From Candidatus Omnitrophota bacterium (lineage in GTDB: Bacteria > Omnitrophota > Gorgyraeia > Gygaellales > Profunditerraquicolaceae), in contig QZKH01000002.1 of the NCBI GenBank assembly GCA_003598025.1, positions 74,133 through 138,132 of the forward strand: 64,000 bases of DNA, read 5' to 3'. The position numbers and the translations under genes are program-made. Below the pieces are notes generated by a model. The model ran no database searches, was not told where the DNA came from, and was given only the letters and a program-made list of their open reading frames with translations. Shown piece by piece: positions 7,174-63,602 of the stretch; position 1 is the stretch's first letter; each line of letters starts with the position of its first letter.

Positions 7174-8199
7174 ATGAACATAAATAATTTCAACCTTGAA
7201 GAGTTGGAGAAAGTGTTGCGCGAATGTGGTCAGCCTGTTTTTCGCGCCCGGCAGATTTTTGCCTGGGTACATAAGAGGAAAGTCTTTGATTTCGGAAAAA
7301 TGTCGGATATGCCGTCAAGCTTAAGAGAAAAACTCAAAAATAAATATTCTATTCAGGATTTAAGCATAAGGAACATAACACGGTCAAGAGACGGAACGCA
7401 AAAATACCTTTTTTCTTTGAATGATGCCAATCTTATTGAAGCGGTGAATATCCCTGCGGCAGGCAGGGTTACGGGATGCGTTTCTACGCAAGCCGGCTGC
7501 AGGTTTGCTTGTAAATTTTGCGCAAGCGGAATTCAGGGATTTGTCAGGAACCTGGAATGTTCTGAGATAATTGAGCAGATTCTTGTCCTTGACAGAGATG
7601 CTTCCGGCGGCCTCACTAACCTCGTTTTTATGGGCACAGGCGAGCCGTTAGATAATTACGATAATGTTATCAAGGCGGCAAGGATAATAAATTCGCAATA
7701 CAGCATTAATCTTGGCGCAAGGAAGATAACCATTTCAACTTCCGGTGTCATTGCCGGCATAGAGCGTCTCAGTAACGAAGGGCTGCAAATCGAACTATCG
7801 GTTTCTTTGCATGCTGCAGATGATAGGACAAGGTCAAGCCTGATGCCCATAAACAAGGTTTATCCTCTAAGTGATCTGATTAAAGCCTGCAGAAAATATA
7901 CCGAGAAAACTAACCGGCAGATAACTTTCGAATACATCCTTATTAAGGGCATTAATTCTACATTGCAGGATGCGCTTAATTTAGTTAAAGTATTAAAAGG
8001 GTTATCCACAATCAAGGTTAATCTTATAGTATCTAATATCGTAGAAGAATCCGGACTTGAGCCGGCGGGCCTGAAAGATGCCGCTGCTTTTAAAGGGTGC
8101 CTTATTAAACACGGCATAAACGTGACGCTGCGTAAGCCGCGCGGACAGGATATTGATGCTGCCTGTGGGCAATTGAGGTTGAGATATGGGGAAGGATAG
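7174..8199 (+). CDS. rlmN: 23S rRNA (adenine2503-C2)-methyltransferase, radical SAM
   Basis: CRFACKFCASG radical-SAM cysteine motif with the conserved RlmN N-terminus (RARQIF.W) and C-terminal region. Confidence 0.9.
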   Translation: MNINNFNLEELEKVLRECGQPVFRARQIFAWVHKRKVFDFGKMSDMPSSLREKLKNKYSIQDLSIRNITRSRDGTQKYLFSLNDANLIEAVNIPAAGRVTGCVSTQAGCRFACKFCASGIQGFVRNLECSEIIEQILVLDRDASGGLTNLVFMGTGEPLDNYDNVIKAARIINSQYSINLGARKITISTSGVIAGIERLSNEGLQIELSVSLHAADDRTRSSLMPINKVYPLSDLIKACRKYTEKTNRQITFEYILIKGINSTLQDALNLVKVLKGLSTIKVNLIVSNIVEESGLEPAGLKDAAAFKGCLIKHGINVTLRKPRGQDIDAACGQLRLRYGEG

Positions 8200-8866
8200 T
8201 TCACTGTTCATAGTTCATAGTTCATGGATTAAGGCGGCAAATTTTATCTTGGCCTTATTTTTATTCTTTGGGATCATCGGGTGTCAGAAGAGGGATATAA
8301 AGAATATTGATTCTAAGGGCACGAATATCATTTGTTTCGGGGATAGCATAACCTTTGGTTACGGCGTTGACCCGGATAAAAGCTATCCTGCGGTTTTAGC
8401 CGGCATAACGCAGTGGCAGGTCATTAACGCAGGGGTAGATGGCGATACTTCAACCGATGGCTTAAACAGGATTAACAAAGATGTTTTAGAAAAAGACCCC
8501 TTACTTGTTGTTATTGAGTTCGGCGGTAATGATTTTCTCAAGAAAATACCAAAAACGCAAACCGCTGAAAACGTAAATAAAATGATTGATCATATACATG
8601 GACGCGGCTCAATGGTAGCGTTGTTAGATATAAGTACAGGCATTTTACTTAGCGATTACCATAAGCTTTTGAAAGACATAGCATCAGAAAGAGGCGCTAT
8701 TTTTATCCCAAAGATTTTAACAGGAATAATCACTAACCCCAGTATGAAGAGCGATTTCCTGCATCCTAATGAAAATGGTTACGCTGTTATCGCCCAACGT
8801 GTTTACCGCACAATTATCCCTTACCTGAATAGGAATTTTACTTTAAAGAGCATCGCCAGCAAATAA
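8186..8866 (+). CDS. SGNH/GDSL hydrolase lipoprotein (TesA/lysophospholipase L1-like)
   Basis: GDSIT block (IICFGDSITFGYG), a GGNDF block, a C-terminal DxxH-type region and a lipobox (GIIGC). The only in-frame ATG, at 8186, overlaps the rlmN stop and the heptamer repeat array. Confidence 0.7.
   Translation: MGKDSSLFIVHSSWIKAANFILALFLFFGIIGCQKRDIKNIDSKGTNIICFGDSITFGYGVDPDKSYPAVLAGITQWQVINAGVDGDTSTDGLNRINKDVLEKDPLLVVIEFGGNDFLKKIPKTQTAENVNKMIDHIHGRGSMVALLDISTGILLSDYHKLLKDIASERGAIFIPKILTGIITNPSMKSDFLHPNENGYAVIAQRVYRTIIPYLNRNFTLKSIASK
8198..8227. repeat. tandem heptamer array (TTCACTG TTCATAG TTCATAG TTCATGG) belonging to the dispersed GTTCATA/TATGAAC family
   Basis: Read directly in the sequence. 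Four 7-nt units at the rlmN/SGNH junction. Confidence 0.85.
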
Positions 8867-11246: not shown

Positions 11247-11690
11247 ATGAAGCCAAAGACAATATATATTATTACTGCAGCTTTAGCAGCGGTTGTCTTT
11301 TCGCTGACTATGTCCATAAGTTTTAAGGATGATAATAAACAGCCTACATTGATGAAAAGGCAAGCCCGTGTCCATAGAACTGAATTTCCCGGTCCTTCAT
11401 TTACAAGTCAGCAGTCTTATAGCGGGTTTACCTCGGTGCCCGGTATTACCGTTGTAAAACCTCCGAAAAAGAAAGAGCCTGTTGAGTCAGTAATAAATAA
11501 TGAACCTTTATCGGATAAGCAAGATATCATTGATAAACAAAGCGTGGATGTTTCCCAAAAAGAGCCTTCCGGATCCCCGGACGAAAATAACGAAGAAGAT
11601 AATAGCACCTCAGGTATTACCGAGCTAAATAAGCGCCCCCCGGAAAAAGAAGCCCGCGAAATGAATCAACATGGGATTATGATGTGGTAA
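11247..11690 (+). CDS. hypothetical membrane-anchored or secreted low-complexity protein
   Basis: N-terminal hydrophobic segment followed by a Pro/Glu/Ser-rich tail. No motif. Confidence 0.3.
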   Translation: MKPKTIYIITAALAAVVFSLTMSISFKDDNKQPTLMKRQARVHRTEFPGPSFTSQQSYSGFTSVPGITVVKPPKKKEPVESVINNEPLSDKQDIIDKQSVDVSQKEPSGSPDENNEEDNSTSGITELNKRPPEKEAREMNQHGIMMW

Positions 11691-11742
11691 TTCTGCTACG
11701 CCCTAAGTAGGCTCAAGTAGGTAGGGCTTCGCAGCAATATAA

Positions 11743-11825
11743 TGCCGAGAGAGGGAGTTGAACCCTCACGAGGTTGCCCTCACCAGTTTTTGAGACTGGC
11801 GTGTATGCCATTCCACCACCTCGGC
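11743..11825 (-). tRNA. tRNA-Leu (anticodon CAA), class II with a long variable arm
   Basis: The reverse complement folds as a cloverleaf. Acceptor is GCCGAGG/CTCTCGGC. The anticodon stem CCAGT/ACTGG carries loop CTCAAAA. There is a long variable arm, a GAGGG-TTCAACT-CCCTC T-arm and discriminator A. Confidence 0.8.
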
Positions 11826-11946
11826 ATAAGTAGATTTGTTTTGAGGTAAGAATATTTACCAGGAAATGCTAGCTACGGCATTTGCTGATTTGCCTTACTT
11901 TTAGCTACAGCAAATCAATCCTGGGGCCTTTTAGCCCGAAGGATTT

Positions 11947-12270
11947 GGACCGTTTTACGCTCGTTTAGTGCCACTTCAAATTTTCCTTGTCGGAAAATAG
12001 TTATGTGGTGGCGCCGCACTCGCTGCCTCACTTGTCGCTCGGCTACGCTCGTTGCGGCATCCACCAATTTTTTCCTTACCGGAAAATTAAAATCCAAGGC
12101 ACTGAACTCGCTACGGTCCTTGTCGGACCGTTTTACGCTCGTTTAGTGCCACTTCAAATTTTCCTTGTCGGAAAATTAAAATCCAAGGCACTGAACTCAC
12201 TACGGTCCTTGTCGGACCGTTTTACGCTCGTTTAGTGCCACTTCAAATTTTCCTTGTCGGAAAATTTGAA
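11947..12270. repeat. 89-bp tandem repeat of about 3.6 units, each carrying two perfect hairpins that share a CCTTGTCGG core; it fills the spacer between tRNA-Ala and tRNA-Leu
   Basis: Units begin at 11947, about 12036 (diverged), 12125 and 12214. They contain GGTCC-TTGTC-GGACC and TTTTCC-TTGTC-GGAAAA hairpins. The last unit abuts the tRNA-Ala 3-prime end. Confidence 0.8.
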
Positions 12271-12271
12271 G

Positions 12272-12344
<73 letters not shown>

Positions 12345-12408
12345 ATTATTATATTTTGCGTTCGTCCCGAGCTACCTTCTCTTGTCTTATGTACCGAGGA
12401 GCAGCCCC

Positions 12409-12522
12409 ATATTTAAAATTTAAAGCTCAGTATACACTCCCAGTCCCGACGCTCATTTGCATTCGGTCGGGATGCCGACTTCACGTATTTTGTGAACGTC
12501 GGCACTGAGCTACAGCCCCATA
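12409..12522 (-). other. structured leader or pseudo-tRNA element upstream of tRNA-Ala that duplicates the tRNA-Ala 5-prime end
   Basis: CTGAGCTACAGCCCCAT (12506-12522) exactly repeats the tRNA 5-prime end at 12330-12346, and a third partial copy, GCAGCCCCATAT, lies at 12409-12420. A long-range AGCTCAGT/ACTGAGCT stem encloses two hairpins. Confidence 0.4.
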
Positions 12523-12544
12523 TTGGCTTAAATTTAGTGTATTA

Positions 12545-12573
12545 AATATAACATTCGGCTATAGCATTGTCAA
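12545..12573 (-). promoter_or_regulatory. sigma70-like promoter driving the minus-strand leader, tRNA-Ala, repeats and tRNA-Leu unit
   Basis: On the minus strand there is TTGACA (-35), a 17-bp spacer and TATATT (-10). It lies 18 bp downstream, in the minus sense, of the left heptamer array. Confidence 0.5.
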
Positions 12574-12594
12574 TACCTTCTGGCTGCCAAACAA

Positions 12595-12690
12595 GTTCAT
12601 GGTTGATAGTTCAAGGTTCATGGACTATGTTAGCGCTTATAGCTATTAAGATTATCTATGAACTATGAACCATGAACAATGAACTATAAA
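12595..12690. repeat. inverted pair of heptamer arrays (GTTCATG GTTGATA GTTCAAG GTTCATG ... CTATGAA CTATGAA CCATGAA CAATGAA CTATAAA) serving divergent promoters
   Basis: Read directly in the sequence. Left array 12595-12622, right array 12656-12690, with a 33-bp spacer. Confidence 0.85.
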
Positions 12691-12701
12691 CCAAGTAGCC
12701 C

Positions 12702-12730
12702 TTGACGCTCCTTACCCCCTGGGGTATAAT
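12702..12730 (+). promoter_or_regulatory. sigma70-like promoter for nfo
   Basis: TTGACG (12702-12707), a 17-bp spacer and TATAAT (12725-12730). The heptamer array ends 11 bp upstream of the -35 box. Confidence 0.6.
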
Positions 12731-12740
12731 GGGTGAAATT

Positions 12741-13583
12741 ATGATATTAGGGGTCCATGTTTCTGCAGCAGGCAATATTTATGATTCGCTTGAGCGTGCC
12801 TATGGGTTAGGCTGTAATACTATGCAGATATTTTCGCGCAATCCTCAAAGATGGCGCGATAATTTTTTAGGGGAGCACGATTTCGATGAATTTCGTAAGG
12901 CTAAGCAAAAATTTAAAATAAACCCCGTCTTTATCCATATACCTTATTTGATAAACCTGGCTTCTCCTGAGCCGGGGCTTTACCGGGCTTCAATCCGCGC
13001 ATATATTGAAGATATTGTTGAAGCAGATAAACTAGGCGCTGATTTTATCGTAACGCATATGGGCAGCCATAAGAAAACATCTGAAAGCCTCGGGATTAAA
13101 AGATTGACGGCTGCCCTGAATAAAATTGCCTTAGCAACAAAAGATTCCAAAGTCGGGATCCTGCTTGAAAATACATCCGGTTCCGGAAGCTGGCTGGGTT
13201 ATGATTTTACGCACCACAAGCGGGTTTTTGATAATTTGAAGGACAGGCAGCGTTTCGGCATATGCCTTGATACCGCCCATGCTTTTTCTGCGGGATATGA
13301 TATATCGAACAAGCCGGGGCTGGATGCGATGCTTGGGGAAATAGACAGGCTGGTTGGTTTAGGTTTGATCAGGTTGATACATCTGAATGACTCAGCTTCA
13401 AGACTTGGGCAGCACTTTGATAAGCACCAGCATATAGGGAAAGGCTATATCGGCATCCCGGGTATGAAAAATATCATTAACCATAAAGGGCTTAAAGATA
13501 AGCCCTTTATATTAGAAACCCCCAAAGAGTATCAATCTTCCGATATTGATAACTTGGAAACAGTGAGGAAACTGAGAAAATGA
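12741..13583 (+). CDS. nfo: endonuclease IV (AP endonuclease family 2, xylose-isomerase-like TIM barrel)
   Basis: N-terminus MILGVHVSAAG, with metal-ligand His/Asp/Glu blocks (HIPYLINL, HMGSH, HLND). The ORF-track start at 12702 lies inside the promoter, so I use the ATG at 12741. Confidence 0.85.
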   Translation: MILGVHVSAAGNIYDSLERAYGLGCNTMQIFSRNPQRWRDNFLGEHDFDEFRKAKQKFKINPVFIHIPYLINLASPEPGLYRASIRAYIEDIVEADKLGADFIVTHMGSHKKTSESLGIKRLTAALNKIALATKDSKVGILLENTSGSGSWLGYDFTHHKRVFDNLKDRQRFGICLDTAHAFSAGYDISNKPGLDAMLGEIDRLVGLGLIRLIHLNDSASRLGQHFDKHQHIGKGYIGIPGMKNIINHKGLKDKPFILETPKEYQSSDIDNLETVRKLRK

Positions 13584-13988: not shown

Positions 13989-16406
13989 ATGGAATATGAT
14001 TTTAAGGAAATAGAGAAGAAGTGGCAGGGATATTGGGATAAGAGCGGTCTATACCGCGCTGAATATTCTCCGGGCAATAAGAAATATTATTTGCTTGAGA
14101 TGTTCCCTTATCCTTCGGGCAAGATACATATGGGCCATGTAAGGAATTATGCCATTGCCGACGTTGCCGCAAGGTTTAAGTTGATGCAGGGTTATAATGT
14201 CCTGCATCCGATGGGTTTTGACGCTTTTGGCCAGCCTGCAGAAAACGCTGCAATCAAGAACAAAACCAAGCCCGATGCCTGGACCCATAAATGCATAGAC
14301 TGGATGCGCGTTGAGCTTAAGAAGATGGGTTTTTCTTATGATTGGGCAAGGGAGGTATCTACCTGCGACAGCACTTATTATAAGTGGAACCAATGGATAT
14401 TCCTTAAAATGTTTGAGAAGGGCCTTGCTTACAAGAAAGCCTCGAATGTAAACTGGTGCCCGAACTGCGAAACCACACTTGCTAATGAAGAAGTGATAAG
14501 TGAAGAGTGCTGGAGATGCCATAGCAAAGTTGAGCAGCGTAAACTTGACCAGTGGTTTTTAAAGATCACCGGATATAAAGAACGGCTGCTTGAAGATCTG
14601 GGAAAGCTTAAAAATTGGCCGGAGCGCGTTATTGCAATGCAGTCTAACTGGATCGGCAGGAGCCAGGGCGTGGAGATTTATTTTAAAATTAAAGGCAATG
14701 ATGATATCACGATACCGGTTTTTACCACCCGTGTAGATACTATATTCGGCGCCAGCTACGTAGTTTTAGCACCGGAGCATCCTTTGGTCGAGGATATTAT
14801 AAAAGGCATAGCACATGAGCCAGAGATCAGGAAGTTTATCAATAAGGTAAAGAAAGAAAAAAAGAACATACTCTCCAAAGAAGATGTTAAAAAAGAGGGT
14901 ATTTTCAGCGGCCGTTATTGTATCAACCCGGTGAATAATGAAACTATCCCTGTTTGGATCGGTGATTATGTTTTAATGGAGTATGGCACAGGCGCGATTA
15001 TGGCAGTGCCGGCTCATGACCAGAGGGATTTTCTTTTTGCTAAAGAACATGGGTTACCTATGAGAATAGTTATAAACAGTCCACAGTCCACAGTCCACAG
15101 TCCACAGGAATTGACTGAAGCGTATGAGGGGGATGGTTTCCAGGTTAATTCTGGGCAATTTGATGGATTGGATAACCAAAAGGCAAAGTCCGAGATTGCA
15201 AAGTGGATGGAGGCAAAAGGGATAGGCAAAATCCAGACACACTGGAGGCTGCGCGATTGGCTTATATCAAGACAGCGATATTGGGGTACACCTATACCGG
15301 TTATATATTGTGAAAAATGCGGGATCGTGCCTGTCCCATATCATGACCTGCCTGTTGAATTGCCGGCTGATGCCCCTTTTACCGGTGAGGGTGGCAGCCC
15401 CTTGGCAAAAGTGAAAAAATTTGTAAATGTCAAATGCCCTAAATGCAATGGCTCTGCCAGGCGCGAAACAGATACCATGGCTACTTTTTTTGACTCGTCG
15501 TGGTATTTCCTGAGATTCTGTTCCCCTTCTTTTAATGAGGCGCCTTTTGATAAGCAGGAGGCTAGATATTGGATGCCAGTTGACCAGTATATCGGGGGAA
15601 TAGAGCACGCTATTTTACATTTACTCTATTCACGCTTTTTTACTAAATTTTTCAAAGACCTGGGGATGGTGGAATTTGACGAGCCGTTTACATGCCTGCT
15701 TACACAGGGGATGGTCCTTAAAGAAGGCGAAGTAATGTCAAAGTCAAAAGGTAATATAGTTGACCCAGATTCGATTATAAAGAAATACGGTGCAGATGCC
15801 CTGCGGCTTTTTATACTTTTTGCCGCGCCTCCGGAAACTGAACTGGAGTGGGATGACAGGGGGATTGAGGGAGCATCCAAGTTCTTAAACAGGGTATGGC
15901 GCCTGCAGGATAACCTAAGGGATGGCCCGGCAGATAAATCAGGAGGGCTGGCCACCGCAAAAATACTGCATAAAACAGTTAAGAAAGTAACTGATGATAT
16001 AAATCAGTTTAAATTTAATACCGCGATTGCCAGTTTAATGGAGCTGACAAATGTTTTATATCAGTCCGGGGCAGATAAAGAGGATTATTCTACGTTAGTT
16101 GTGTTGCTGGCCCCGATAGCCCCGCATTTTGCAGAGCAAATTTGGGAGAATTTAGGGAACAAAGAATCTGTATTTAAGGCAAAATGGCCGCAGTATAACC
16201 CGGATTATCTTTTTGATTCTGTTGTTGATATAGTAGTCCAGGTAAATGGTAAGCTGCGCTCTAAGCTCGCAGTCCCGTTTGATGTTAGAGAAGAAGAGTT
16301 AAAAGAATTAGTCTTGCGTGATCAGAAGGTACAACCCTGGATTAGCGGTAAGAATATCAGAAGTTTTATATTCGTGCCCAACAAACTTGTCAACATCGTA
16401 GTCTGA
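13989..16406 (+). CDS. leuS: leucyl-tRNA synthetase
   Basis: HMGH motif ([12 protein letters not shown]) and KMSKS motif (VMSKSKGN). 805 aa with a LeuRS-type CP1/editing insertion. Confidence 0.95.
15077..15107. repeat. 7-nt tandem repeat (CAGTCCA, 4.4 copies) inside the leuS coding sequence
   Basis: Read directly in the sequence. It encodes [10 protein letters not shown] in a variable loop of LeuRS. Confidence 0.85.
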
Positions 16407-16789: not shown

Positions 16790-16839
16790 TAAATAATTAT
16801 ACCTAAAATATCTGGCGAATGCAAAGAAAAGGATATTTG

Positions 16840-16936
16840 GTTCATAGTTCATAGATCATGGTTCATAGATAATTTATGCTGACGCTTACATTTATCCATG
16901 CTAAGACAACCAACCATGAACCATGCTCTATGAACC
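16840..16936. repeat. inverted pair of heptamer arrays (GTTCATA GTTCATA GATCATG GTTCATA ... CCATGAA CCATGCT CTATGAA) in the divergent intergenic region between the receiver gene and comEA
   Basis: Read directly in the sequence. Arrays at 16840-16867 and 16915-16936. Confidence 0.85.
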
Positions 16937-16989
16937 AATCCCTGTTAGAAATAACATCTGTATGCGTCTTATATCAGGAGGGCAAAAAT

Positions 16990-18695: not shown

Positions 18696-18710
18696 CCTGC
18701 TATCCGTAAC

Positions 18711-18731
18711 TATGAACTATGGACCATGAAC
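18711..18731. repeat. heptamer array (TATGAAC TATGGAC CATGAAC) upstream of the TPR lipoprotein promoter
   Basis: Read directly in the sequence. A TTGACA at 18756-18761 follows 24 bp later. Confidence 0.8.
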
Positions 18732-18792
18732 AAACCTACTTTGCCTACTTAGCAATTGACAAACATTCTGCTCTATGTTACTTTAATTTAAT

Positions 18793-19743
18793 ATGAAAAA
18801 GGCTTTTTTCTTTATTATAACCATTTCTGTTCTTGCTGTTTTCTTACCGCAGGATGCAGGCGCTTATTGGATTTGGACCCCCAAAACCGGTAAATGGGTC
18901 AATCCAAAGAACCAGGTCAAGGGCACGCCGCAAGAGCAGTTCAAACTTGCTAAAGACCTATATGATTCAGGGCAGTTAGCCGAGGCAGACAGGGAGTTTA
19001 AAAAGCTTATAAAAAGATACCCTAAAGCTTTTGAGGCTTCAGAAAGCCAGTATTACCTGGGTTTAATAGAAGAAAAACAGGGGAATCTTTACGAAGCCTT
19101 CACCGCCTACCAAAAGGTCATTGATAAGTACCCTTTTTCTGAAAGGATACAGGAGATAATTGAGAAGGAATATAAGATAGGCGAAGAGTTTATGTCAGGG
19201 TACAAGCGTAAAGGGCTTGGTGCCACTTTTGCGGTTGAAAACCCGGCAATAGAGATTTTTACAAAAGTAGTTGAAAACTCTACATACGGGCCGTTGGCAG
19301 CCAAAGCGCAATATAAACTGGGTTTGGTGCTTAAAGGGCTTATGCGTTATTATGATGCCGAGGAAGCATTTGATAAAGTCATTAATAATTACCCTGACAG
19401 CGAATGGGTCGAGGCCGCCAAATTCCAGATTGCAGAATGCCGGGCAAGCCTTTCCCGCGGGCCGGACTATGATTTAGGGGCTGCCAAGGATGCCAAGGAC
19501 AGGTTTGAAGACTTTTTAATGGAGCATCCCGATGCGGAATTATCCAGGGAAGCTGAAAAGAATATCCAGGAGCTTAACGAAAAAGAGGCAGAAAGTAGTT
19601 ATAATATAGCTTTCTTTTATGAGAAGCAGAGGGACTTTAAGCCAGCCATGATTTATTATCAGGATATAATTGAAAAATACCCAAATAGTATTTGGGCGGC
19701 AAAGGCTTTAGAGAGAATGAGGGTATTGGAAAGGAAGAAATGA
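18793..19743 (+). CDS. TPR-repeat outer-membrane lipoprotein (BamD/YbgF-like)
   Basis: Signal peptide followed by multiple TPR-like repeats (YYLGL..., YKLGLVL...). Its position next to lptE fits an outer-membrane biogenesis role. Confidence 0.45.
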   Translation: MKKAFFFIITISVLAVFLPQDAGAYWIWTPKTGKWVNPKNQVKGTPQEQFKLAKDLYDSGQLAEADREFKKLIKRYPKAFEASESQYYLGLIEEKQGNLYEAFTAYQKVIDKYPFSERIQEIIEKEYKIGEEFMSGYKRKGLGATFAVENPAIEIFTKVVENSTYGPLAAKAQYKLGLVLKGLMRYYDAEEAFDKVINNYPDSEWVEAAKFQIAECRASLSRGPDYDLGAAKDAKDRFEDFLMEHPDAELSREAEKNIQELNEKEAESSYNIAFFYEKQRDFKPAMIYYQDIIEKYPNSIWAAKALERMRVLERKK

Positions 19744-33697: not shown

Positions 33698-33711
33698 CCT
33701 CTGTGAACTAT
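33698..33711. repeat. short heptamer array (GTGAACT ATGAACC) upstream of the promoter of gene 33816, with a degenerate inverted copy at 33658-33680
   Basis: Read directly in the sequence. TTGAAC (33730-33735), a 17-bp spacer and TAGAAT follow. Confidence 0.6.
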
Positions 33712-33815
33712 GAACCAATGTACTGCTTATTGAACTCATACTTTTTCCATGATAGAATACAATACAATGAGCAAAAATATTTATTGAGCCACTGATAGAA
33801 TAACTGGAGGTAGCT

Positions 33816-50928: not shown

Positions 50929-51213
50929 ATGAAACAGATCACCACTCATGAAGAACAACTCGCCTTTTTAAGGAAGATCGAAGGCCAGATACGCGGTATA
51001 CAGAAGATGATCCAGGATAAGAGGTACTGCGTAGATATAATCACTCAAATCCATTCTATCATTGGCGCGCTATACAGGGTGGAGGATGAAATATTAAGAA
51101 AACACCTTGATGGCTGCGTTGTCAGCGCTCTTAAAGGCAAATCAGATTCAGACAAACAAAAGAAAATAGAAGAGATCATGTCATTGATAACTAAATTCAG
51201 GCGGAGCCCCTGA
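50929..51213 (+). CDS. csoR: CsoR/RcnR-family (DUF156) metal-sensing repressor
   Basis: W-X-Y-Z fingerprint residues C...H...C (RYCVDIITQIHSIIGAL...LDGCV). 94 aa, all-helical. Confidence 0.75.
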   Translation: MKQITTHEEQLAFLRKIEGQIRGIQKMIQDKRYCVDIITQIHSIIGALYRVEDEILRKHLDGCVVSALKGKSDSDKQKKIEEIMSLITKFRRSP

Positions 51214-58341: not shown

Positions 58342-58737
58342 ATGAAATTATTAACCAGAGATACGGATTATGCGGTAAGGGCGCTTTGTTTTATAGCAAG
58401 AATGGATAATAAAGTTGTTCCTGTTCCGGAATTAGTCAGGGAGCTTGATGTCCCCAGGCCATTTTTGAGGAAGATCCTGCAGATACTGCACAAAAAGGGT
58501 ATTTTGTATTCTTTTAAAGGTAAAGGAGGCGGATTCTCTTTGGCAAAACCTCCAGATAAGATATTAATTACCGATTTAATAAAGATATTTCAGAATTCTC
58601 TTAAATTAAATGAGTGCATACTGAAAAAAAGAATATGCCCTAATAAGGGCGCCTGTTCTCTAAGGCGTAAGATCGATGGTATTGAAAAGATTGTTGCTAA
58701 GGAGCTAAGTTCTATAACTGTAAAGTCATTAATCTAG
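58342..58737 (+). CDS. Rrf2-family transcriptional regulator (NsrR/IscR-like, three Cys)
   Basis: Rrf2 HTH (DYAVRALCFIAR...) and C-terminal Cys residues (CILKKRICPNKGAC). Confidence 0.8.
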   Translation: MKLLTRDTDYAVRALCFIARMDNKVVPVPELVRELDVPRPFLRKILQILHKKGILYSFKGKGGGFSLAKPPDKILITDLIKIFQNSLKLNECILKKRICPNKGACSLRRKIDGIEKIVAKELSSITVKSLI

Positions 58738-58752
58738 AAAAGGAGTTAAGAA

Positions 58753-60432
58753 ATGAGTAATAAAATGTTTTGCTATCAATGTGAGGAGACTGTAAACGGC
58801 AAAGGATGCACAATCGAAGGCATCTGCGGGAAAACCCATGTAGTAGCTAATTTACAGGACCTTCTTATTTATCTTGCTAAAGGTATATCTGTATATGCAA
58901 ATAAGGCAAGGGAATTAGGCGTAAACAATGCAGAGGTAGACTTATTTGTAATTGAATCGCTGTTTTCGACTGTCACAAACGTTAATTTTGACCAAGATAG
59001 AATGATTGAATTGATAAAAAAAGCGTTCTATTACAGGGATGATATAAAGAATATGTTTTTCGGGGCATATAAAGCTAAGAACGCAAACAAAGGCTTTGAA
59101 GGGAAGCTCCCGGATGCTTGTATCTGGCATTGGGATGGCAGCGTAGACAGCCTTTACACAAAGGCAATAAGCGTAAGTATATTATCTGAGGCCAATGAAG
59201 ATATACGTTCATTAAGAGAATTATTAGTTTACGGGCTTAAAGGGATAGCTGCATATGCAGACCATGCATATATATTAGGTAAAGAAGATAACGATATACT
59301 GGCTTTTGTCGAAGAGGGGCTTGCTGCTACGCTTGATAATACCTTAGGGGCCCAGGAGCTAGTCGGCTTAGTTATGAAAGCCGGTGAATATGCAGTTAAA
59401 ACAATGGCACTTTTAGATAACGCTAATACGTCTGCCTATGGTAATCCTGAAATAACCCAGGTATTTACCGGCACTAAAGAAGGCCCGGCGATACTTGTTA
59501 GCGGACATGATCTGTTGGATTTGGAAGAGATACTTAAACAGACGCAAGGAACCGGTATAAATGTTTATACTCATGGTGAGATGTTGCCTGCAAATGCATA
59601 TCCGAAATTAAAGAAGTATAGCAATCTTGTAGGTAATTACGGTACTTCCTGGTATAACCAGCAAAAAGAATTCGAGGCATTTAACGGGGCTATAGTAATG
59701 ACTACCAATTGCCTCCAGAGGCCAAAAGATTCTTACAGAGACAGGATGTTTACCACAGGCTTAGTCGCATGGCCGCAAGTCCAGCATATTAAGGACAGGG
59801 TAGGCAGCGCTCAAAAAGATTTTTCTGCTGTAATTGAGAAGGCGCTTGCCCTGGGTGGCCTTGAAGAAACCCCAGGTAAATATATTACAATCGGTTTTGC
59901 CCACGTATCTGCTATCAAAGTCGCAGCAAAGATAGTAGATGCTGTTAAATCAGGGAGTATAAAGAGATTTGTGGTAATGGCTGGTTGTGACGGAAGGCAC
60001 AAGGAGAGGAATTATTTCAGTGAGGTAGCAAGGCAACTTCCGGAAGATGCGGTGATATTGACCGCAGGATGCGCCAAATACAGATATAATATGCTGGATC
60101 TCGGAGATATAGGGGGAATACCCAGAGTTATAGACGCCGGCCAGTGCAATGATTCCTATTCTCTGGTTGTGATCGCCCAGGAGCTGGCAAAGGTATTCAA
60201 AGTTAAAGATATAAATGAACTGCCGGTTTCGTTTGATATAGCATGGTATGAACAAAAGGCAGTATGCGTGCTTTTAGCTTTGTTATATCTTGGAGTAAAA
60301 AATATAAGGCTGGGACCGAACCTGCCAGCTTTCATTTCTCCTGCTGTTTTAAAGGTGCTGGTTGAGAAATTCGATATTAAGCCCATCAGTACTCCGGAAA
60401 AAGATATAGAAGCTATGCTGGCGGCTAAATAA
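58753..60432 (+). CDS. hcp: hybrid-cluster protein (hydroxylamine reductase)
   Basis: N-terminal MFCYQCEETVNGKGCT...GICGK cubane-cluster motif and conserved hybrid-cluster ligands. Confidence 0.9.
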   Translation: MSNKMFCYQCEETVNGKGCTIEGICGKTHVVANLQDLLIYLAKGISVYANKARELGVNNAEVDLFVIESLFSTVTNVNFDQDRMIELIKKAFYYRDDIKNMFFGAYKAKNANKGFEGKLPDACIWHWDGSVDSLYTKAISVSILSEANEDIRSLRELLVYGLKGIAAYADHAYILGKEDNDILAFVEEGLAATLDNTLGAQELVGLVMKAGEYAVKTMALLDNANTSAYGNPEITQVFTGTKEGPAILVSGHDLLDLEEILKQTQGTGINVYTHGEMLPANAYPKLKKYSNLVGNYGTSWYNQQKEFEAFNGAIVMTTNCLQRPKDSYRDRMFTTGLVAWPQVQHIKDRVGSAQKDFSAVIEKALALGGLEETPGKYITIGFAHVSAIKVAAKIVDAVKSGSIKRFVVMAGCDGRHKERNYFSEVARQLPEDAVILTAGCAKYRYNMLDLGDIGGIPRVIDAGQCNDSYSLVVIAQELAKVFKVKDINELPVSFDIAWYEQKAVCVLLALLYLGVKNIRLGPNLPAFISPAVLKVLVEKFDIKPISTPEKDIEAMLAAK

Positions 60433-60447
60433 AATACGGGGGAAACT

Positions 60448-61284
60448 ATGCAGAAAAGGAAAATAATAAAAATTGATGAAAATAAATGTACTGGGTGCGG
60501 CCTGTGCATACCGAATTGCCCTGAGGGCGCTATACAGATAATTGATGGTAAGGCGCGCCTCATAAGCGATTTGTTTTGTGACGGTTTAGGCGCATGTATC
60601 GGCCATTGCCCCGAGGGAGCTATAACTATAGAGGAGAGGGAAGCCCAGGCCTACGACGAGGATAAAGTGATGGAAAATATCGTAAAGCAAGGCCCGAATG
60701 TAATAAAAGCCCACCTCCATCATTTAAAAGCTCATGGCGAGGTAAATTATTATAACCAGGCTTTGGCTTTCTTGAAGGAACACAACATCAATATCCCTGT
60801 AGATAAGAAATGCGGCCCCGCTGGCCACGGGCCATCTGGTTGTCCTGGCTCAAGGATGATGGATTTGCGCAAAAAGAAAAAAACAGAACACGATGTAAGC
60901 TCTGCGGCAAAGCAGGAGTCTGAACTTGGCCAGTGGCCGGTGCAGCTTATGCTTGTGCCCAGCTATGCGCCTTATTTGAATAATTGCGATCTTCTGATAG
61001 CTGCCGATTGCGTTCCTTTTGCTTATGCTGATTTTCATCGCGACCTTTTGAAAGGCAAAACTTTGCTCGTGGGCTGCCCCAAACTTGACGATGTTTCAAT
61101 ATATCAGAATAAACTGGAACAGGTTTTTGCCAATAACGATATAAAATCAGTTACTTATGCCCATATGGAAGTGCCTTGCTGTTTTGGTTTGGTTAATATA
61201 ATACAATCGGCGATAGAGAAATCAGGTAAAGCAATACCTTTTAAAGAAGCTGTCATAAGTATAAGCGGAGAGAGGCTAAGATGA
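60448..61284 (+). CDS. 2x[4Fe-4S] ferredoxin-domain protein with a C-terminal Cys-containing domain of unclear function
   Basis: CTGCGLCIPNCP and CDGLGACIGHCP. The C-terminal half has further cysteines, but I cannot place it in a family. Confidence 0.55.
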   Translation: MQKRKIIKIDENKCTGCGLCIPNCPEGAIQIIDGKARLISDLFCDGLGACIGHCPEGAITIEEREAQAYDEDKVMENIVKQGPNVIKAHLHHLKAHGEVNYYNQALAFLKEHNINIPVDKKCGPAGHGPSGCPGSRMMDLRKKKKTEHDVSSAAKQESELGQWPVQLMLVPSYAPYLNNCDLLIAADCVPFAYADFHRDLLKGKTLLVGCPKLDDVSIYQNKLEQVFANNDIKSVTYAHMEVPCCFGLVNIIQSAIEKSGKAIPFKEAVISISGERLR

Positions 61285-62024
61285 TGCTTGGGTGTCCTGG
61301 TTCAGGGCCGTTCAAGCAGCCAAAGCCCGAAGACCTAAAGTGTTCCAGGTGTAATGCTGAAATTGAGATCTGGAGCGATGAAGCCAAGGCTAAATGCCCG
61401 TCTTGCGGAAATATTGTATTACGCAAATTTTCCGGAAACACATGCCTTGACTGGTGTAAAGAAGCCCGTTTCTGCGTCGGAGATAAAGTTTATAAAAATT
61501 ATATTCAGGGCAAGGCAGCATCCTTAAAACAGGGGATAGTCGAAGAGATGGAGCGTTATTTCGGAGATGATACAAAGAGGATAAGGCACGCAAGGAATGT
61601 TATGGGATTTGCTGAAATGATCCTCAAGGAACATAAAGCAGATTGGCATATCGTTATACCCGCTAGCCTATTGCATGATATAGGGATTAAGCGGGCTCAG
61701 GAGAAATACGGCTCAACCTCGGGGCATTACCAGGAGATAGAAGGGCCTGCAATCGCAGAGGCCATACTTAATAAATTGGGGGTCAAAAAAAGCGATATTG
61801 ATGAAATTTGCCAGATTATTGCACATCATCATTCCCCGGGCATAGTTAATACTGAGAATTTTAAAGTCTTATATGATGCTGATTGGCTGGTAAATTTAAA
61901 AGACGAGTATGATATTAAAGACAGGCAAAAACTGATCCGGATTATCGATAGGGTATTTCTGACGGAAACAGGCAAAAGGTTAGCCAACGATACTTACGTT
62001 AACTTAAAAAGGAGTAATCTATGA
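61281..62024 (+). CDS. HD-domain phosphohydrolase with an N-terminal zinc-ribbon
   Basis: CSRC...CPSCG ribbon. HD motifs H...HD...H (RHARNV, LLHDIG, AHHH). Confidence 0.65.
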
Positions 62025-62242
62025 AAGAAAAAGTTTTAGATGTTTTGACAAAAATCCGGCCTATGCTTCAGGCTGACGGAGGGGATGTGGAGTTGGTTGA
62101 GGTTACGCCGGAAAATGTCGTTAAGGTCAGGCTTAAAGGTGCATGCGGAAGCTGTCCCATGAGCCAGATGACTTTAAAAATGGGGGTTGAGAGGCTGTTA
62201 AAAAAGGAAATCCCTGAGATTAAAGAAGTAGTGGCGGTATAG
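62021..62242 (+). CDS. NifU-like (Nfu) Fe-S cluster carrier domain protein
   Basis: GACGSCPMS CxxC motif in the Nfu fold. Confidence 0.7.
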
Positions 62243-62302
62243 TAAATTTATCCCAGGCGGTTAGTTAGCCGTATTAAATAAATAGTGTTTTTAAATAACC
62301 TT

Positions 62303-62344
62303 CCATGAACCACGAACTATGAACTATGAACTATGAACTATGAA
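62303..62344. repeat. heptamer array, six units (CCATGAA CCACGAA then CTATGAA four times), upstream of the flavodiiron gene promoter
   Basis: Read directly in the sequence. TTGACT (62362-62367) and TATAAT (62384-62389) follow. Confidence 0.9.
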
Positions 62345-62414
62345 CTAATATGCTATACCCTTTGACTATTATCAGCCCGCTGTTATAATGGGACAGGATA
62401 GGCGGAGGTGTAAT

Positions 62415-63602
62415 ATGAAGACAGAGATAGCAAAGAATATTTATTCGGTAGGGGTGCTTGATTGGAATATGCGTTCTTTTCACGGGCACACTTATTCAAC
62501 AAGCAGGGGCACGACTTATAATTCTTATCTTATAATCGATGATAAAGTTACCCTTGTAGACGGGGTCTTAGGTTCATTTTCAGGGGAACTGATTAATAAC
62601 ATAAGCGAGATTGTTTCGCCTGAGAAAATAGACTACATTATTGTAAATCACCTTGAAGCTGACCATACGGGGGCATTACCCGAGGTGATTAAGATTTGTC
62701 CTAACGCAAGAATATTTTGCTCCCAGAAATGTAAAGAAGGATTATATAAGCATTATTATGAAAATTGGAATTTTAATGTCGTAAAAACCGGGGATATCCT
62801 TAAGCTGGGAGAAAAAACACTGTCTTTTATCGAGGCCCCCATGATCCATTGGCCGGATAGCATGTTTACATATTGCCGGCAGGACGCCCTGCTTATGCCT
62901 AACGATGCATTCGGACAGCACTATGCAACCAGCCAAAGATTTGATGATCAGGTTGACCAATGCGAACTTATGGATGAAGCTGTAAAATATTACTCAAATA
63001 TTCTTTGGCCGTTGAGTGCAATAATCTCCAAGAAAATAGAGGAGATTGAGAAAATGGATATCCCGATTAAGACAATTGCTCCTAGCCACGGGATAGTATG
63101 GCGTAGGGACCCAGCCAAAATAATAAATGCTTATAAAAAATGGTCTAAAAATGAATCAGAGCCCAAGGTTGTAATCATCTATGAGACTATGTGGGGCTCA
63201 ACTGAGAAAATGGCAAGGGCCATATCGCAGGGGCTTATGGATTCAGGTGTTAAGGTCAAGATTTTCGATGTTGCAGTCTCTGACAGGACGGAGATGACAA
63301 AAGAAATGATGGAGAGCCGGGGCTATTTGTTTGGTTCTTCCACGCATGATAATGATATGCTCCCGACAATGGCGGGATTCATGGAATTCGTAAAGGGCCT
63401 GAAGCCTAAGAACAGGCTGGTTTCAGTTTTTGGTTCTTATGGCTGGGCAGGAGGCGCGGTAAAAGAGATTGAAGGAGTTATAAAAGAGACAGGCCTGAAT
63501 ATAAACCAACCTTCTTTATCAATCCAATATGTACCTGATAACAAGGCTTTAAAAGACTGCTACAATTTTGGCGTAAATTTCAGCAAGCTGGTCAAGTTTT
63601 AA
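62415..63602 (+). CDS. flavodiiron protein (metallo-beta-lactamase plus flavodoxin; FprA/NorV-like without a rubredoxin domain)
   Basis: HxExDH di-iron motif (HLEADHTG) and the flavodoxin signature in the C-terminal half. GGAGGTG RBS precedes the ATG at 62415. Confidence 0.85.
   Translation: MKTEIAKNIYSVGVLDWNMRSFHGHTYSTSRGTTYNSYLIIDDKVTLVDGVLGSFSGELINNISEIVSPEKIDYIIVNHLEADHTGALPEVIKICPNARIFCSQKCKEGLYKHYYENWNFNVVKTGDILKLGEKTLSFIEAPMIHWPDSMFTYCRQDALLMPNDAFGQHYATSQRFDDQVDQCELMDEAVKYYSNILWPLSAIISKKIEEIEKMDIPIKTIAPSHGIVWRRDPAKIINAYKKWSKNESEPKVVIIYETMWGSTEKMARAISQGLMDSGVKVKIFDVAVSDRTEMTKEMMESRGYLFGSSTHDNDMLPTMAGFMEFVKGLKPKNRLVSVFGSYGWAGGAVKEIEGVIKETGLNINQPSLSIQYVPDNKALKDCYNFGVNFSKLVKF

What the first reader, a model, noticed from the sequence alone, without database searches (positions are those of the whole stretch)
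62303..62344. Dispersed heptamer tandem arrays (CTATGAA / GTTCATAG) sit just upstream of the -35 box at six or more promoters
At 8198-8227, 12595-12622 and 12656-12690, 16840-16867 and 16915-16936, 18711-18731, 33698-33711 and 62303-62344 there are two to six tandem copies of a 7-nt unit (consensus YTATGAAC). For five of the loci I could identify a -35 box, and each array ends 11-25 bp upstream of it. The promoters are those of nfo, comEA, the TPR lipoprotein, gene 33816, the flavodiiron protein and the minus-strand tRNA unit. Two loci (12.6 kb and 16.9 kb) carry inverted pairs of arrays serving divergent promoters. The placement is consistent and the motif is not a known UP element, Fur-box or OmpR-box. 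Seven such loci in 64 kb, all intergenic, implies a genome-wide regulon or a promoter-associated repeat family. A 7-bp period is out of phase with the DNA helix, which suggests either binding by a protein that tracks the groove unusually, or slipped-strand copy-number variation that tunes promoter geometry.
Basis: seen in the sequence. Interest (0 to 1): 0.75.

Follow-up and report, generated by a model that had tools for sequence, protein, structure and literature searches.

The report
Dispersed 7-bp repeat arrays beside promoters
The short 7-base repeats are real and lie just upstream of several promoters in this Omnitrophota genome, but they belong to an already noticed and still unexplained class of bacterial heptamer repeats, and I found no evidence that they form a regulon.

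Summary
Eight arrays of the unit YATGAAC (2-6 copies) lie at six loci, and none lies inside a confirmed coding region. YTATGAAC occurs 16 times against 4 expected. Six arrays, plus a doubtful seventh, end 9-24 bp upstream of a sigma-70-like -35 box.

The window is core chromosome of an uncultured Candidatus Omnitrophota bacterium. Similar arrays turn up in many phyla. In 120 such loci period 7 dominates all tandem repeats, more than 60 different units occur, all 166 ATGAACY arrays are intergenic, and they show no orientation or promoter bias. Inverted pairs always read GTTCAT...ATGAAC, whatever the orientation of the flanking genes.

The literature already records intergenic heptamer repeats as abundant and unexplained (Mrazek 2007, as cited by others; Rehm 2015; MacGregor 2015; Mori 2018).

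My best reading is a new family of this repeat class. Slippage would make and resize the arrays, and they would survive only in the free DNA upstream of core promoters in a 93% coding genome. Any effect on promoters is probably modest.

A dedicated heptad-binding protein is not excluded. The unit is the same at every locus and its hexamer core is conserved, which slippage alone does not explain.

Novelty: new member of a known kind. Interest is moderate.

The parts
8200..8227 (-). Array of 4 units (CCATGAA CTATGAA CTATGAA CAGTGAA on the minus strand). It starts at the rlmN stop codon, lies inside the 5' end of the GDSL lipase ORF as called, and has no promoter downstream.
12595..12623 (-). Left arm of inverted pair 1, 4 units. 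It ends 21 bp upstream of the -35 box of the minus-strand tRNA promoter.
12624..12655 (.). Spacer of pair 1, 32 bp. It is not significantly similar to the spacer of pair 2.
12656..12691 (+). Right arm of inverted pair 1, 5 units. It ends 10 bp upstream of the nfo -35 box.
12545..12573 (-). Sigma-70-like promoter TTGACA-17-TATATT (11 of 12) reading towards the tRNA-Ala region.
12702..12730 (+). Sigma-70-like promoter TTGACG-17-TATAAT (11 of 12) for nfo. The probable start codon is at 12742, which gives a near-leaderless mRNA.
16840..16868 (-). Left arm of inverted pair 2, 4 units. It ends 14 bp upstream of the -35 box of the receiver-domain gene.
16912..16937 (+). Right arm of inverted pair 2, about 3 units (68% matches), upstream of comEA. 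Only a weak promoter match lies 9 bp downstream.
16796..16825 (-). Sigma-70-like promoter TTTGCA-18-TATAAT (10 of 12) for the CheY-like receiver gene.
18710..18731 (+). Single array of 3 units. It lies 14 bp after the comEC stop codon and 24 bp before a TTGACA box.
18756..18784 (+). Candidate promoter TTGACA-17-TACTTT for the TPR/BamD-like lipoprotein gene. It is below the scan threshold.
33701..33715 (+). Single array of 2 units (CTGTGAA CTATGAA+C) in the divergent region between the cation-efflux gene and the adenosine-kinase gene.
33730..33758 (+). Candidate promoter TTGAAC-17-TAGAAT, 14 bp downstream of the array.
62303..62345 (+). Single array of 6 units, the last four perfect. It ends 16 bp upstream of the flavodiiron-protein promoter.
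62362..62389 (+). Sigma-70-like promoter TTGACT-16-TATAAT (11 of 12) for the flavodiiron protein gene (start codon at 62415).
15076..15107 (+). Same repeat class but a different unit: a perfect ACAGTCC x4.6 array, in frame, inside the leuS gene. It encodes [11 protein letters not shown] in a variable stretch at or just after the end of the editing domain.

Best explanation
These arrays are a dispersed family of heptanucleotide tandem repeats with the unit YATGAAC. They belong to the class known as cyanobacterial STRR, as 'long simple sequence repeats', and as the GGGAATC and TAACTGA families of Xanthomonas and Beggiatoaceae.

Inferred mechanism:
- Slipped-strand mispairing creates the arrays and changes their length.
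- Because 7 is not a multiple of 3, the arrays are purged from coding DNA. The exception is a loop that tolerates an in-frame insert, as in leuS.
- In this 93% coding genome, with short or absent 5' leaders, the tolerated DNA is the stretch between the upstream gene, or a divergent promoter, and the -35 box. That is why the arrays look promoter-associated.
- Single arrays are structure-free spacer DNA. Inverted pairs are palindromes prone to forming cruciforms. Either may shift promoter strength when copy number changes, but they are not the operator of a regulon.

What is shown: that the arrays exist, where they lie, how they compare with arrays in other genomes, and that they fit this repeat class.

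What is inferred: slippage, tolerance by exclusion, and a weak effect on promoters.

What is left open: why one unit dominates the genome.
For: - Period 7 dominates tandem repeats in 120 loci from many phyla: 382 arrays, against at most 98 for any other period, with more than 60 different units.
- All 166 ATGAACY arrays in those loci are intergenic, with no orientation bias towards gene starts (76 against 68).
- They show no excess of promoter-like sites: 1.3% on either side against 0.9% background.
- A second Omnitrophota genome (L070) carries three different heptamer units in equivalent short gaps, with variable orientation and position.
- A perfect array of another unit lies in frame inside leuS, so heptamer expansion is an ongoing mutational process in this genome and does not depend on promoters.
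- The gaps to the -35 box vary from 9 to 24 bp with no common phase. They are no closer than random placement in the free DNA would give (my calculation).
- The downstream genes are functionally unrelated.
- Roughly eleven other promoter-like sites scoring 10-11 of 12, in non-coding DNA or just upstream of a gene start, have no array (my selection from the list).
- Two permuted control units also form arrays in viral contigs. I found 50 stretches for ATGAACY, 35 for AAGCTAY and 3 for AGTACAY, so this unit is common but not unique.
- The literature describes the class and attributes it to slippage. Xanthomonas shows length variation at conserved sites and inverted pairs.
Against: - Slippage alone does not explain why eight of the nine heptamer arrays in 64 kb share one unit.
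- Substitutions concentrate at one position of the unit (T19, C11, A4, G1), while ATGAAC is kept in 29-35 of 35 units. This looks like constraint on a hexamer core.
- Array length drops sharply above four full units: 81 arrays with four against 30 with five.
- Inverted pairs obey a strict polarity that hairpin energy cannot explain.
- In this window, four of six arrays with three or more units have a strong promoter match on the forward side and none on the reverse side.
- All three genuinely divergent regions carry arrays (my Fisher-type estimate is p about 0.005).
- Copy-number polymorphism, the key prediction of slippage, could not be tested.
Confidence: 0.5

Rival explanations
1. The arrays are heptad operators. 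A dedicated DNA-binding protein binds one dimer or monomer per 7-bp unit and cooperatively coats three to six units upstream of the -35 box. It thereby activates or silences a dispersed set of promoters. The precedents are omega/ParB of pSM19035 on WATCACW heptads, and ToxR/ToxT/H-NS on the TTTTGAT heptads of the ctxAB promoter. The protein could move horizontally, which would explain the same unit in many phyla.
For: - The same unit occurs at six loci.
- The hexamer core is conserved and one position is free.
- Isolated ATGAAC hexamers are not enriched: 23 and 18 per strand, against about 20 expected from base composition (the expected value is my calculation). Arrays, not single sites, are therefore the unit of occurrence.
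- Array length drops sharply above four units. Omega needs at least four contiguous heptads.
- In this window the arrays sit upstream of strong promoters, on one side only.
- Real heptad-binding systems exist, so a 7-bp period is no obstacle.
Against: - Orientation, distance and promoter association are all absent in 153-166 arrays from other genomes.
- The gaps to the -35 box in the window are variable.
- The downstream genes are unrelated.
- Other heptamer units occupy equivalent places in L070 and in nearly every locus examined.
- The regulators found in the window are CsoR-, Rrf2- and Fur-family proteins, none of which, to my knowledge, binds tandem heptads. The searches covered about 50 of roughly 68 ORFs and found no ribbon-helix-helix protein.
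- The array at 8.2 kb has no promoter.
Confidence: 0.28
2. The arrays are footprints of a directional DNA transaction, not regulatory sites and not plain slippage products. One possibility is a foldback or MITE-like element whose ends are heptamer arrays. Another is repeats added to 3' ends, or made by snap-back synthesis, at a break and then rejoined. On this view inverted pairs are the complete form and single arrays are half-elements.
For: - Seventeen of 17 ATGAACY pairs, and 26 of 26 by a second method, read GTTCAT...ATGAAC.
- Among other units the 5' arm has G>C in 22 pairs, a tie in 4 and G<C in 1.
- The arrangement does not depend on the orientation of the flanking genes.
- The same 'convergent' rule was reported for about 145 GGGAATC pairs in Xanthomonas.
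- Both window pairs span 97 bp, and their arms fold with a z-score of about -5.
- Arms are typically about four units long.
Against: - The spacers of the two window pairs are not similar: alignment score 13 against a null mean of 12.3.
- I saw no consistent target-site duplication and no conserved terminal motif beyond decayed units.
- The roughly 50 of 68 window ORFs scanned against Pfam are all housekeeping genes, with no transposase, reverse transcriptase or integrase.
- No enzyme is known that would add heptamers.
Confidence: 0.12
3. The arrays are a chance pattern or an assembly artefact.
For: The two-unit array at 33.7 kb and the weak right arm at 16.9 kb are individually marginal.
Against: - None of 100 shuffles reached the observed motif count.
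- Even the two-unit site has a chance expectation of about 0.02 per window (my calculation).
- The arrays are at most 44 bp, shorter than a sequencing read.
- The same arrays occur in hundreds of independent assemblies.
Confidence: 0.02

Closest known systems
Heptanucleotide simple sequence repeats of prokaryotes: LSSR of Mrazek et al. 2007 (known to me only as cited in PMC4679880 and PMC4692102) and the intergenic tandem heptamers of Mori et al. 2018 (PMC6344855)
   Same: These are tandem 7-bp units of a few copies, intergenic, and sporadic across phyla. Their function is unknown and slippage has been proposed as the cause.
   Different: The unit YATGAAC and the phylum Omnitrophota do not appear in any paper I could find. 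In this window the arrays sit beside strong sigma-70-like promoters.
GGGAATC repeats of Xanthomonas and GGGGA(C/T)T repeats of Nostoc (Rehm et al. 2015, PMC4692102)
   Same: One dominant unit is dispersed over many intergenic sites, and most arrays have about four units. Many arrays form inverted pairs in a fixed 'convergent' orientation. Between species, sites are conserved while lengths vary. No regulatory role was found.
   Different: Those units are G-rich and form G-quadruplexes. YATGAAC arrays have no predicted structure: 0 kcal/mol as single strands. The Xanthomonas repeats are under-represented between divergent genes, whereas here all three divergent regions carry arrays.
TAACTGA repeats of marine Beggiatoaceae, Cyanobacteria and Bacteroidetes (MacGregor 2015, PMC4679880)
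   Same: A single heptamer is dispersed in sets of 2-6 copies. Related heptamers are not repeated, and isolated copies are not enriched. The same unit is shared by distant phyla, including Cyanobacteria and Bacteroidetes.
   Different: TAACTGA sets lie in forward orientation within a few nucleotides of the start codon and overlap the ribosome-binding site. Here the arrays lie upstream of the -35 box, outside the predicted transcript.
Paired heptanucleotide and octanucleotide arrays annotated as putative global-regulator sites in Geobacter metallireducens (PMC2700814)
   Same: Four or five tandem heptamers occur at tens of loci, mostly as pairs on opposite strands.
   Different: The units are different (MTYCTGA, GGACCGG), and some Geobacter arrays lie within genes. 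The regulator assignment there is also only a prediction.
TTTTGAT heptads of the Vibrio cholerae ctxAB promoter
   Same: These are tandem 7-bp units within the promoter region. Copy number varies between strains and changes promoter activity. ToxR, ToxT and H-NS bind them. That they lie directly upstream of the -35 box is from my own knowledge.
   Different: That is a single locus with a strongly AT-rich unit and identified binding proteins. Here the family is dispersed, no binder is known and no strain comparison is available.
Omega (ParB, ribbon-helix-helix) heptad operators and parS of plasmid pSM19035
   Same: Contiguous 7-bp units are each bound by one dimer, and at least four units are needed for full function. 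This shows that a 7-bp period is compatible with protein binding.
   Different: Omega sites mix direct and inverted heptads with no gap between them, and are plasmid-borne beside the omega gene. That they overlap the promoters they repress is from my own knowledge. Here the arrays are purely direct, the inverted arms are 32-43 bp apart, the DNA is chromosomal, and no ribbon-helix-helix gene was seen in the ORFs scanned.

Membership tests
Heptanucleotide SSR / STRR-type repeat families | Head-to-tail tandem copies of a 7-bp unit | tested here: met
   TRF reports period 7 with 3.4-6.1 copies and 68-91% matches. A unit-based scan agrees.
Heptanucleotide SSR / STRR-type repeat families | The same unit is dispersed at many separate loci of one genome | tested here: met
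   There are eight arrays at six loci in 64 kb. The rest of the genome was not available.
Heptanucleotide SSR / STRR-type repeat families | Strong restriction to non-coding DNA | tested here: met
   Seven of the eight window arrays lie in intergenic gaps that make up about 7% of the window. The eighth abuts a stop codon. In other genomes 166 of 166 arrays are intergenic.
Heptanucleotide SSR / STRR-type repeat families | Inverted pairs with a fixed convergent polarity, as reported for Xanthomonas | tested here: met
   Both window pairs, and 17 of 17 pairs (26 of 26 by a second method) elsewhere, read GTTCAT...ATGAAC. Compare.
Heptanucleotide SSR / STRR-type repeat families | Copy-number variation between strains or species at conserved sites | not testable with these tools
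   No second copy or close relative of this genome could be fetched. The nearest flavodiiron-protein homologue has 71% identity.
Heptad operator arrays (omega/ParB type) | At least 2-4 contiguous heptads with a conserved recognition core | tested here: met
   There are 2-6 units. The ATGAAC core is kept in 29-35 of 35 units.
Heptad operator arrays (omega/ParB type) | A cognate small DNA-binding protein (ribbon-helix-helix) is encoded with the sites | tested here: inconclusive
   Pfam scans of about 50 of roughly 68 window ORFs found CsoR-, Rrf2- and Fur-family regulators but no ribbon-helix-helix protein. The rest of the genome was not seen.
Heptad operator arrays (omega/ParB type) | Heptads overlap or abut the core promoter, with direct and inverted units contiguous | tested here: not met
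   The arrays end 9-24 bp upstream of the -35 box. Units within an array are all direct, and the inverted arms are 32-43 bp apart.
ctxAB-type promoter heptads | A tandem heptad tract directly upstream of the -35 box of the regulated promoter | tested here: met
   This holds for six arrays plus a doubtful seventh, out of eight.
ctxAB-type promoter heptads | Copy number differs between strains and changes expression, and activator or H-NS binding has been shown | not testable with these tools
   There are no strain data and no experiments. The organism is uncultured.
MITE / REPIN-type mobile palindromic elements | A conserved internal sequence between the inverted ends in copies from one genome | tested here: not met
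   The alignment score of the two spacers is 13, against a null mean of 12.3 and a 95th percentile of 17.
MITE / REPIN-type mobile palindromic elements | Target-site duplications or conserved terminal nucleotides | tested here: not met
   The flanks show only decayed repeat units. The two pairs have no consistent direct repeat at their outer ends (my inspection).
UP element | An A/T-tract consensus between -40 and -60, contacted by the alpha C-terminal domain of RNA polymerase | tested here: not met
   The DNA between the arrays and the -35 box is not A/T-tract-like, for example CCAAGTAGCCC. The unit contains G and C and repeats every 7 bp. The consensus itself is from my own knowledge.
SARP / PhoB-type heptamer direct repeats | Heptamer direct repeats spaced at an 11-bp period and overlapping the -35 box | tested here: not met
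   The period here is exactly 7, and the arrays lie upstream of the -35 box. The family definition is from my own knowledge.

The most novel reading that the evidence does not exclude
Heptamer arrays, including this YATGAAC family, could be the product or the binding substrate of a single, still undiscovered DNA transaction shared by many bacterial phyla. Four regularities point that way:
- The polarity of inverted pairs is invariant: the G/T-rich strands converge, whatever the gene context.
- Array length drops sharply above four units.
- The hexamer core is conserved and one position is free.
- One unit dominates each genome.

Candidates are a horizontally mobile heptad-binding protein family, or an enzyme that adds repeats directionally to 3' ends. 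In this Omnitrophota genome the arrays would then be functional modules attached to strong promoters.
Probability: 0.15. Interest if true: 0.8.

Novelty: new member of a known kind. Interest (0 to 1): 0.4.

Why it matters
Tandem heptamers are reported to be the most abundant intergenic tandem repeat in prokaryotes, and their function has had 'no clear clue' (Mori 2018). This window extends the phenomenon to Omnitrophota with a unit I could not find described anywhere.

It also offers compact test cases. These are strong sigma-70-like promoters with 2-6 units directly upstream, and two 97-bp palindromic pairs between divergent promoters.

The comparison across phyla made here shows several things. 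The repeats are strictly intergenic. Their orientation is random with respect to genes. Pair polarity is invariant, and array length falls off sharply above four units. Together these narrow the range of possible mechanisms and argue against reading such arrays as ordinary operator sites in genome annotation.

Tried and rejected
- Fetching a second copy or a close relative, to test copy-number variation and conservation. Exact-protein look-ups for the flavodiiron protein, the adenosine kinase, LeuRS and P0001 found nothing, and one earlier attempt failed on a frame error. Two metagenome scans, one with ComEC and one with the flavodiiron promoter 36-mer, were empty. The nearest flavodiiron homologues have about 70% identity, sit inside operons, and show no ATGAAC arrays in about 86 kb.
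- MITE or REPIN reading: rejected, because the spacers are not conserved and there are no target-site duplications or terminal motifs.
- RNA element: the cmscan run at E<=1 over 11600-12750, which covers only the 12.6 kb pair, gave nothing relevant. Single arrays have no predicted fold.
Those are not tandem 7-mers, are not confined to intergenic DNA, or need associated genes that are absent from the ORFs scanned (my own knowledge).
- TorR 'tor box' CTGTTCATAT and the LexA GAAC motifs share letters with the unit. Their period and arrangement do not fit. These are resemblances from memory and were not pursued.
- A unit-specific literature search found no relevant paper.
- Is ATGAACY uniquely common? 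No. A permuted control unit gave 35 viral stretches against 50.

Full report
**Observation.**
The reported arrays are in the sequence. Tandem Repeats Finder lists period-7 arrays at 8196-8225, 12656-12691, 16840-16868, 16912-16937, 18708-18731 and 62305-62347. A unit-based scan adds a four-unit minus-strand array at 12596-12623 and a two-unit array at 33701-33714. YTATGAAC occurs 16 times against 4.05 expected, and none of 100 shuffles reached 16. That makes six loci and eight arrays.

Across 35 units, the first position is free (T19, C11, A4, G1) while ATGAAC is kept in 29-35 of 35 units.

**Context.**
The window is core chromosome of an uncultured Candidatus Omnitrophota bacterium. Its flavodiiron protein is identical to RJP29578.1. 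Genes include SecA, a class-I release factor (RF-1/PCRF domains), MurJ, UvrC, LeuRS and the delta subunit of DNA polymerase III, and no mobile-element genes were found in the roughly 50 of 68 ORFs scanned. About 93% of the window is coding and 64 of 68 called ORFs are on the plus strand.

The genes next to the arrays are:
- rlmN and a GDSL lipase;
- a tRNA-Ala unit and nfo;
- a CheY-like receiver and comEA/comEC;
- a TPR/BamD-like lipoprotein;
- an adenosine-specific kinase;
- a flavodiiron protein.

**Promoters.**
- Across the whole window I count eight sigma-70-like matches scoring 11 of 12 that lie in non-coding DNA or just upstream of a gene start. Three of them lie directly downstream of arrays: 12573..12545 on the minus strand, 12702..12730 and 62362..62389. 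The array at 16.9 kb (left arm) has a 10 of 12 match.
- Four of the six arrays with three or more units have a match of at least 10 of 12 within 40 bp on the forward side. None has one on the reverse side.
- Weaker candidates follow the arrays at 18.7 kb, 33.7 kb and 16.9 kb (right arm).
- The gaps from the last GAAC to the -35 box are 21, 10, 14, 9, 24, 14 and 16 bp, so there is no fixed distance and no common helical phase.
- The array at 8.2 kb starts at the rlmN stop codon, points the other way and has no promoter.
- Roughly eleven other promoter-like sites scoring 10-11 of 12, in non-coding DNA or just upstream of a gene start, have no array (my selection from the list).
- All three genuinely divergent intergenic regions carry arrays, against two of about twenty tandem gaps (after I set aside two spurious minus-strand ORFs).

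**Is the placement more than exclusion?**
For the three single arrays I compared the observed gap with uniform placement between the upstream boundary and the -35 box. The probabilities are about 0.66, 0.22 and 0.17, which combine to about 0.3. This is my calculation from the coordinates. In the two divergent regions the 97-bp pair fills most of the 119-128 bp between the two -35 boxes. Position alone therefore does not require a promoter function.

**Other genomes.**
The hits came from Cyanobacteria, Bacteroidota, Planctomycetota, Acidobacteriota, Omnitrophota, Methylomirabilota, Poribacteria and other phyla.
- In these loci period 7 dominates all tandem repeats: 382 arrays, against at most 98 for any other period, with more than 60 different units.
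- All 166 ATGAACY arrays are intergenic. The forward side faces a gene start 76 times and a gene end 68 times.
- Strong promoter-like matches are no commoner beside these arrays (1.3%) than at random positions (0.9%).
- Viral contigs hold 50 stretches with the unit. Two permuted controls gave 35 and 3, so the unit is common but not unique.
- Other Omnitrophota at about 70% flavodiiron-protein identity have no such arrays in about 86 kb.
- Omnitrophota locus L070 has three different heptamer units, including an inverted pair, in short gaps with variable orientation and position.

**Evidence for an ongoing mutational process.**
A perfect ACAGTCC x4.6 array lies in frame inside leuS. It replaces a variable stretch at or just after the end of the editing domain, with a net gain of two residues relative to the Thermus thermophilus enzyme.

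**Regularities that plain slippage does not explain.**
- Eight of the nine heptamer arrays in the window share one unit.
- Substitutions concentrate at one position of the unit.
- Array length drops sharply above four full units: 81 arrays with four against 30 with five for other units, and 22 against 9 for bystander ATGAACY arrays. Three-unit arrays are undercounted, so I cannot claim a true mode at four.
- Inverted pairs have an invariant polarity. Seventeen of 17, and 26 of 26 by a second method, read GTTCAT...ATGAAC. For other units the 5' arm has G>C in 22 pairs, a tie in 4 and G<C in 1.
- That polarity does not depend on gene context. The pairs lie between 4 divergent, 3 convergent and 8 tandem gene pairs by my crude ORF calls. 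Those calls file the window's 12.6 kb tRNA/nfo pair as tandem although it is really divergent.
- Rehm et al. reported the same 'convergent' arrangement for about 145 GGGAATC pairs in Xanthomonas.
- The window pairs fold as imperfect hairpins with a z-score of about -5. Single arrays have no predicted structure.
- The two spacers are not related, and the flanks show only decayed units. That argues against a MITE.

**Literature.**
- Mori et al. 2018 found tandem heptamers to be the most abundant intergenic tandem repeat across prokaryotes, with 'no clear clue' to their function.
- MacGregor 2015 described the dispersed TAACTGA family and summarised Mrazek's slippage proposal.
- Rehm et al. 2015 described the Xanthomonas and Nostoc families. 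Sites are conserved and lengths vary between species, and no regulatory role was found.
- The Geobacter metallireducens genome paper annotated paired heptamer arrays as putative global-regulator sites.
- A Nostoc preprint reports modest reporter effects of heptamer repeats near promoters.
- Real heptad-binding systems exist at the ctxAB promoter and in omega/parS of pSM19035.
- No paper mentions the unit CTATGAA or its rotations in this sense.

**Conclusion.**
The finding is a genuine, new family (YATGAAC, in Omnitrophota) of a known but unexplained repeat class.

The best-supported account has confidence 0.5. Slippage makes and resizes the arrays, and they persist only in the free DNA upstream of core promoters in a very compact genome. 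At most they tune promoters modestly.

A dedicated heptad-binding protein has confidence 0.28. It is kept alive by the unit specificity, the conserved core and the drop in array length above four units.

A directional DNA transaction has confidence 0.12. It is kept alive by the polarity rule.

The regulon reading is not supported by the gene content, the geometry or the cross-genome comparison.

Noticed in passing
window 15076-15107: A perfect heptamer array (ACAGTCC x4.6) lies in frame inside the essential leuS gene. It encodes [11 protein letters not shown] in a variable stretch at or just after the end of the editing domain, a net gain of two residues relative to the Thermus enzyme. From memory, the unit rotated to CCACAGT is one base away from the cyanobacterial STRR1 and STRR3 units.
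   Followed up: partly
L001-L213 and window 12595-12691, 16840-16937: Inverted pairs of heptamer arrays obey a fixed polarity across phyla. On either strand the 5' arm is the G>=C version of the unit (GTTCAT before ATGAAC). The left arm has G>=C in 56 of 57 pairs, and this does not depend on the orientation of the flanking genes. It was previously reported only for GGGAATC in Xanthomonas. I have no explanation.
   Followed up: partly
L001-L120: The length distribution of heptamer arrays drops sharply after four full units (81 against 30 for non-ATGAACY units) and has a long tail. Three-unit arrays are undercounted by the detection threshold, so a true mode at four is not shown. Both window pairs span exactly 97 bp.
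   Followed up: partly
window 11947-12266: An 89-bp unit is repeated 3.6 times between tRNA-Leu(CAA) and tRNA-Ala(GGC). On the minus strand each unit carries hairpins CTTCAAATTTTCC-GACA-GGAAAATTTGAAG and ACGGTCC-GACA-GGACCGT. No Rfam family matches. It could be a repeated structured RNA inside a tRNA operon.
   Followed up: partly
window about 12345-12520, minus strand: Two partial copies of the 5' end of tRNA-Ala (ATGGGGCTGTAGCTCAG... and ATGGGGCTGCTCCTCGG...) lie between the array-associated promoter and the intact tRNA-Ala gene.
   Followed up: no
window 12726-12744, 16790-16802, 18779-18795: Several predicted -10 boxes lie only 7-10 nt before the start codon (nfo, the receiver-domain gene, the TPR lipoprotein). 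This suggests leaderless or near-leaderless mRNAs.
   Followed up: no
window 8197-8227; L070 5190-5228: In two Omnitrophota genomes a heptamer array begins exactly at the TAG stop codon of the upstream gene, so the stop codon is part of the first unit.
   Followed up: no
window 58342-63602: There is a cluster of redox and nitrosative-stress genes: an Rrf2-family regulator, a hybrid-cluster protein, a ferredoxin-like protein, an HD-domain protein, a small ORF whose C-terminal residues look NifU-like to me (not scanned against Pfam), and the flavodiiron protein. CsoR-like and Fur-family regulators lie further upstream, at 50929 and 42657.
   Followed up: no
L126-L175 (viral contigs): ATGAACY arrays also occur in 50 stretches of IMG/VR viral contigs, some of them from giant-virus bins. 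I did not examine their context.
   Followed up: no
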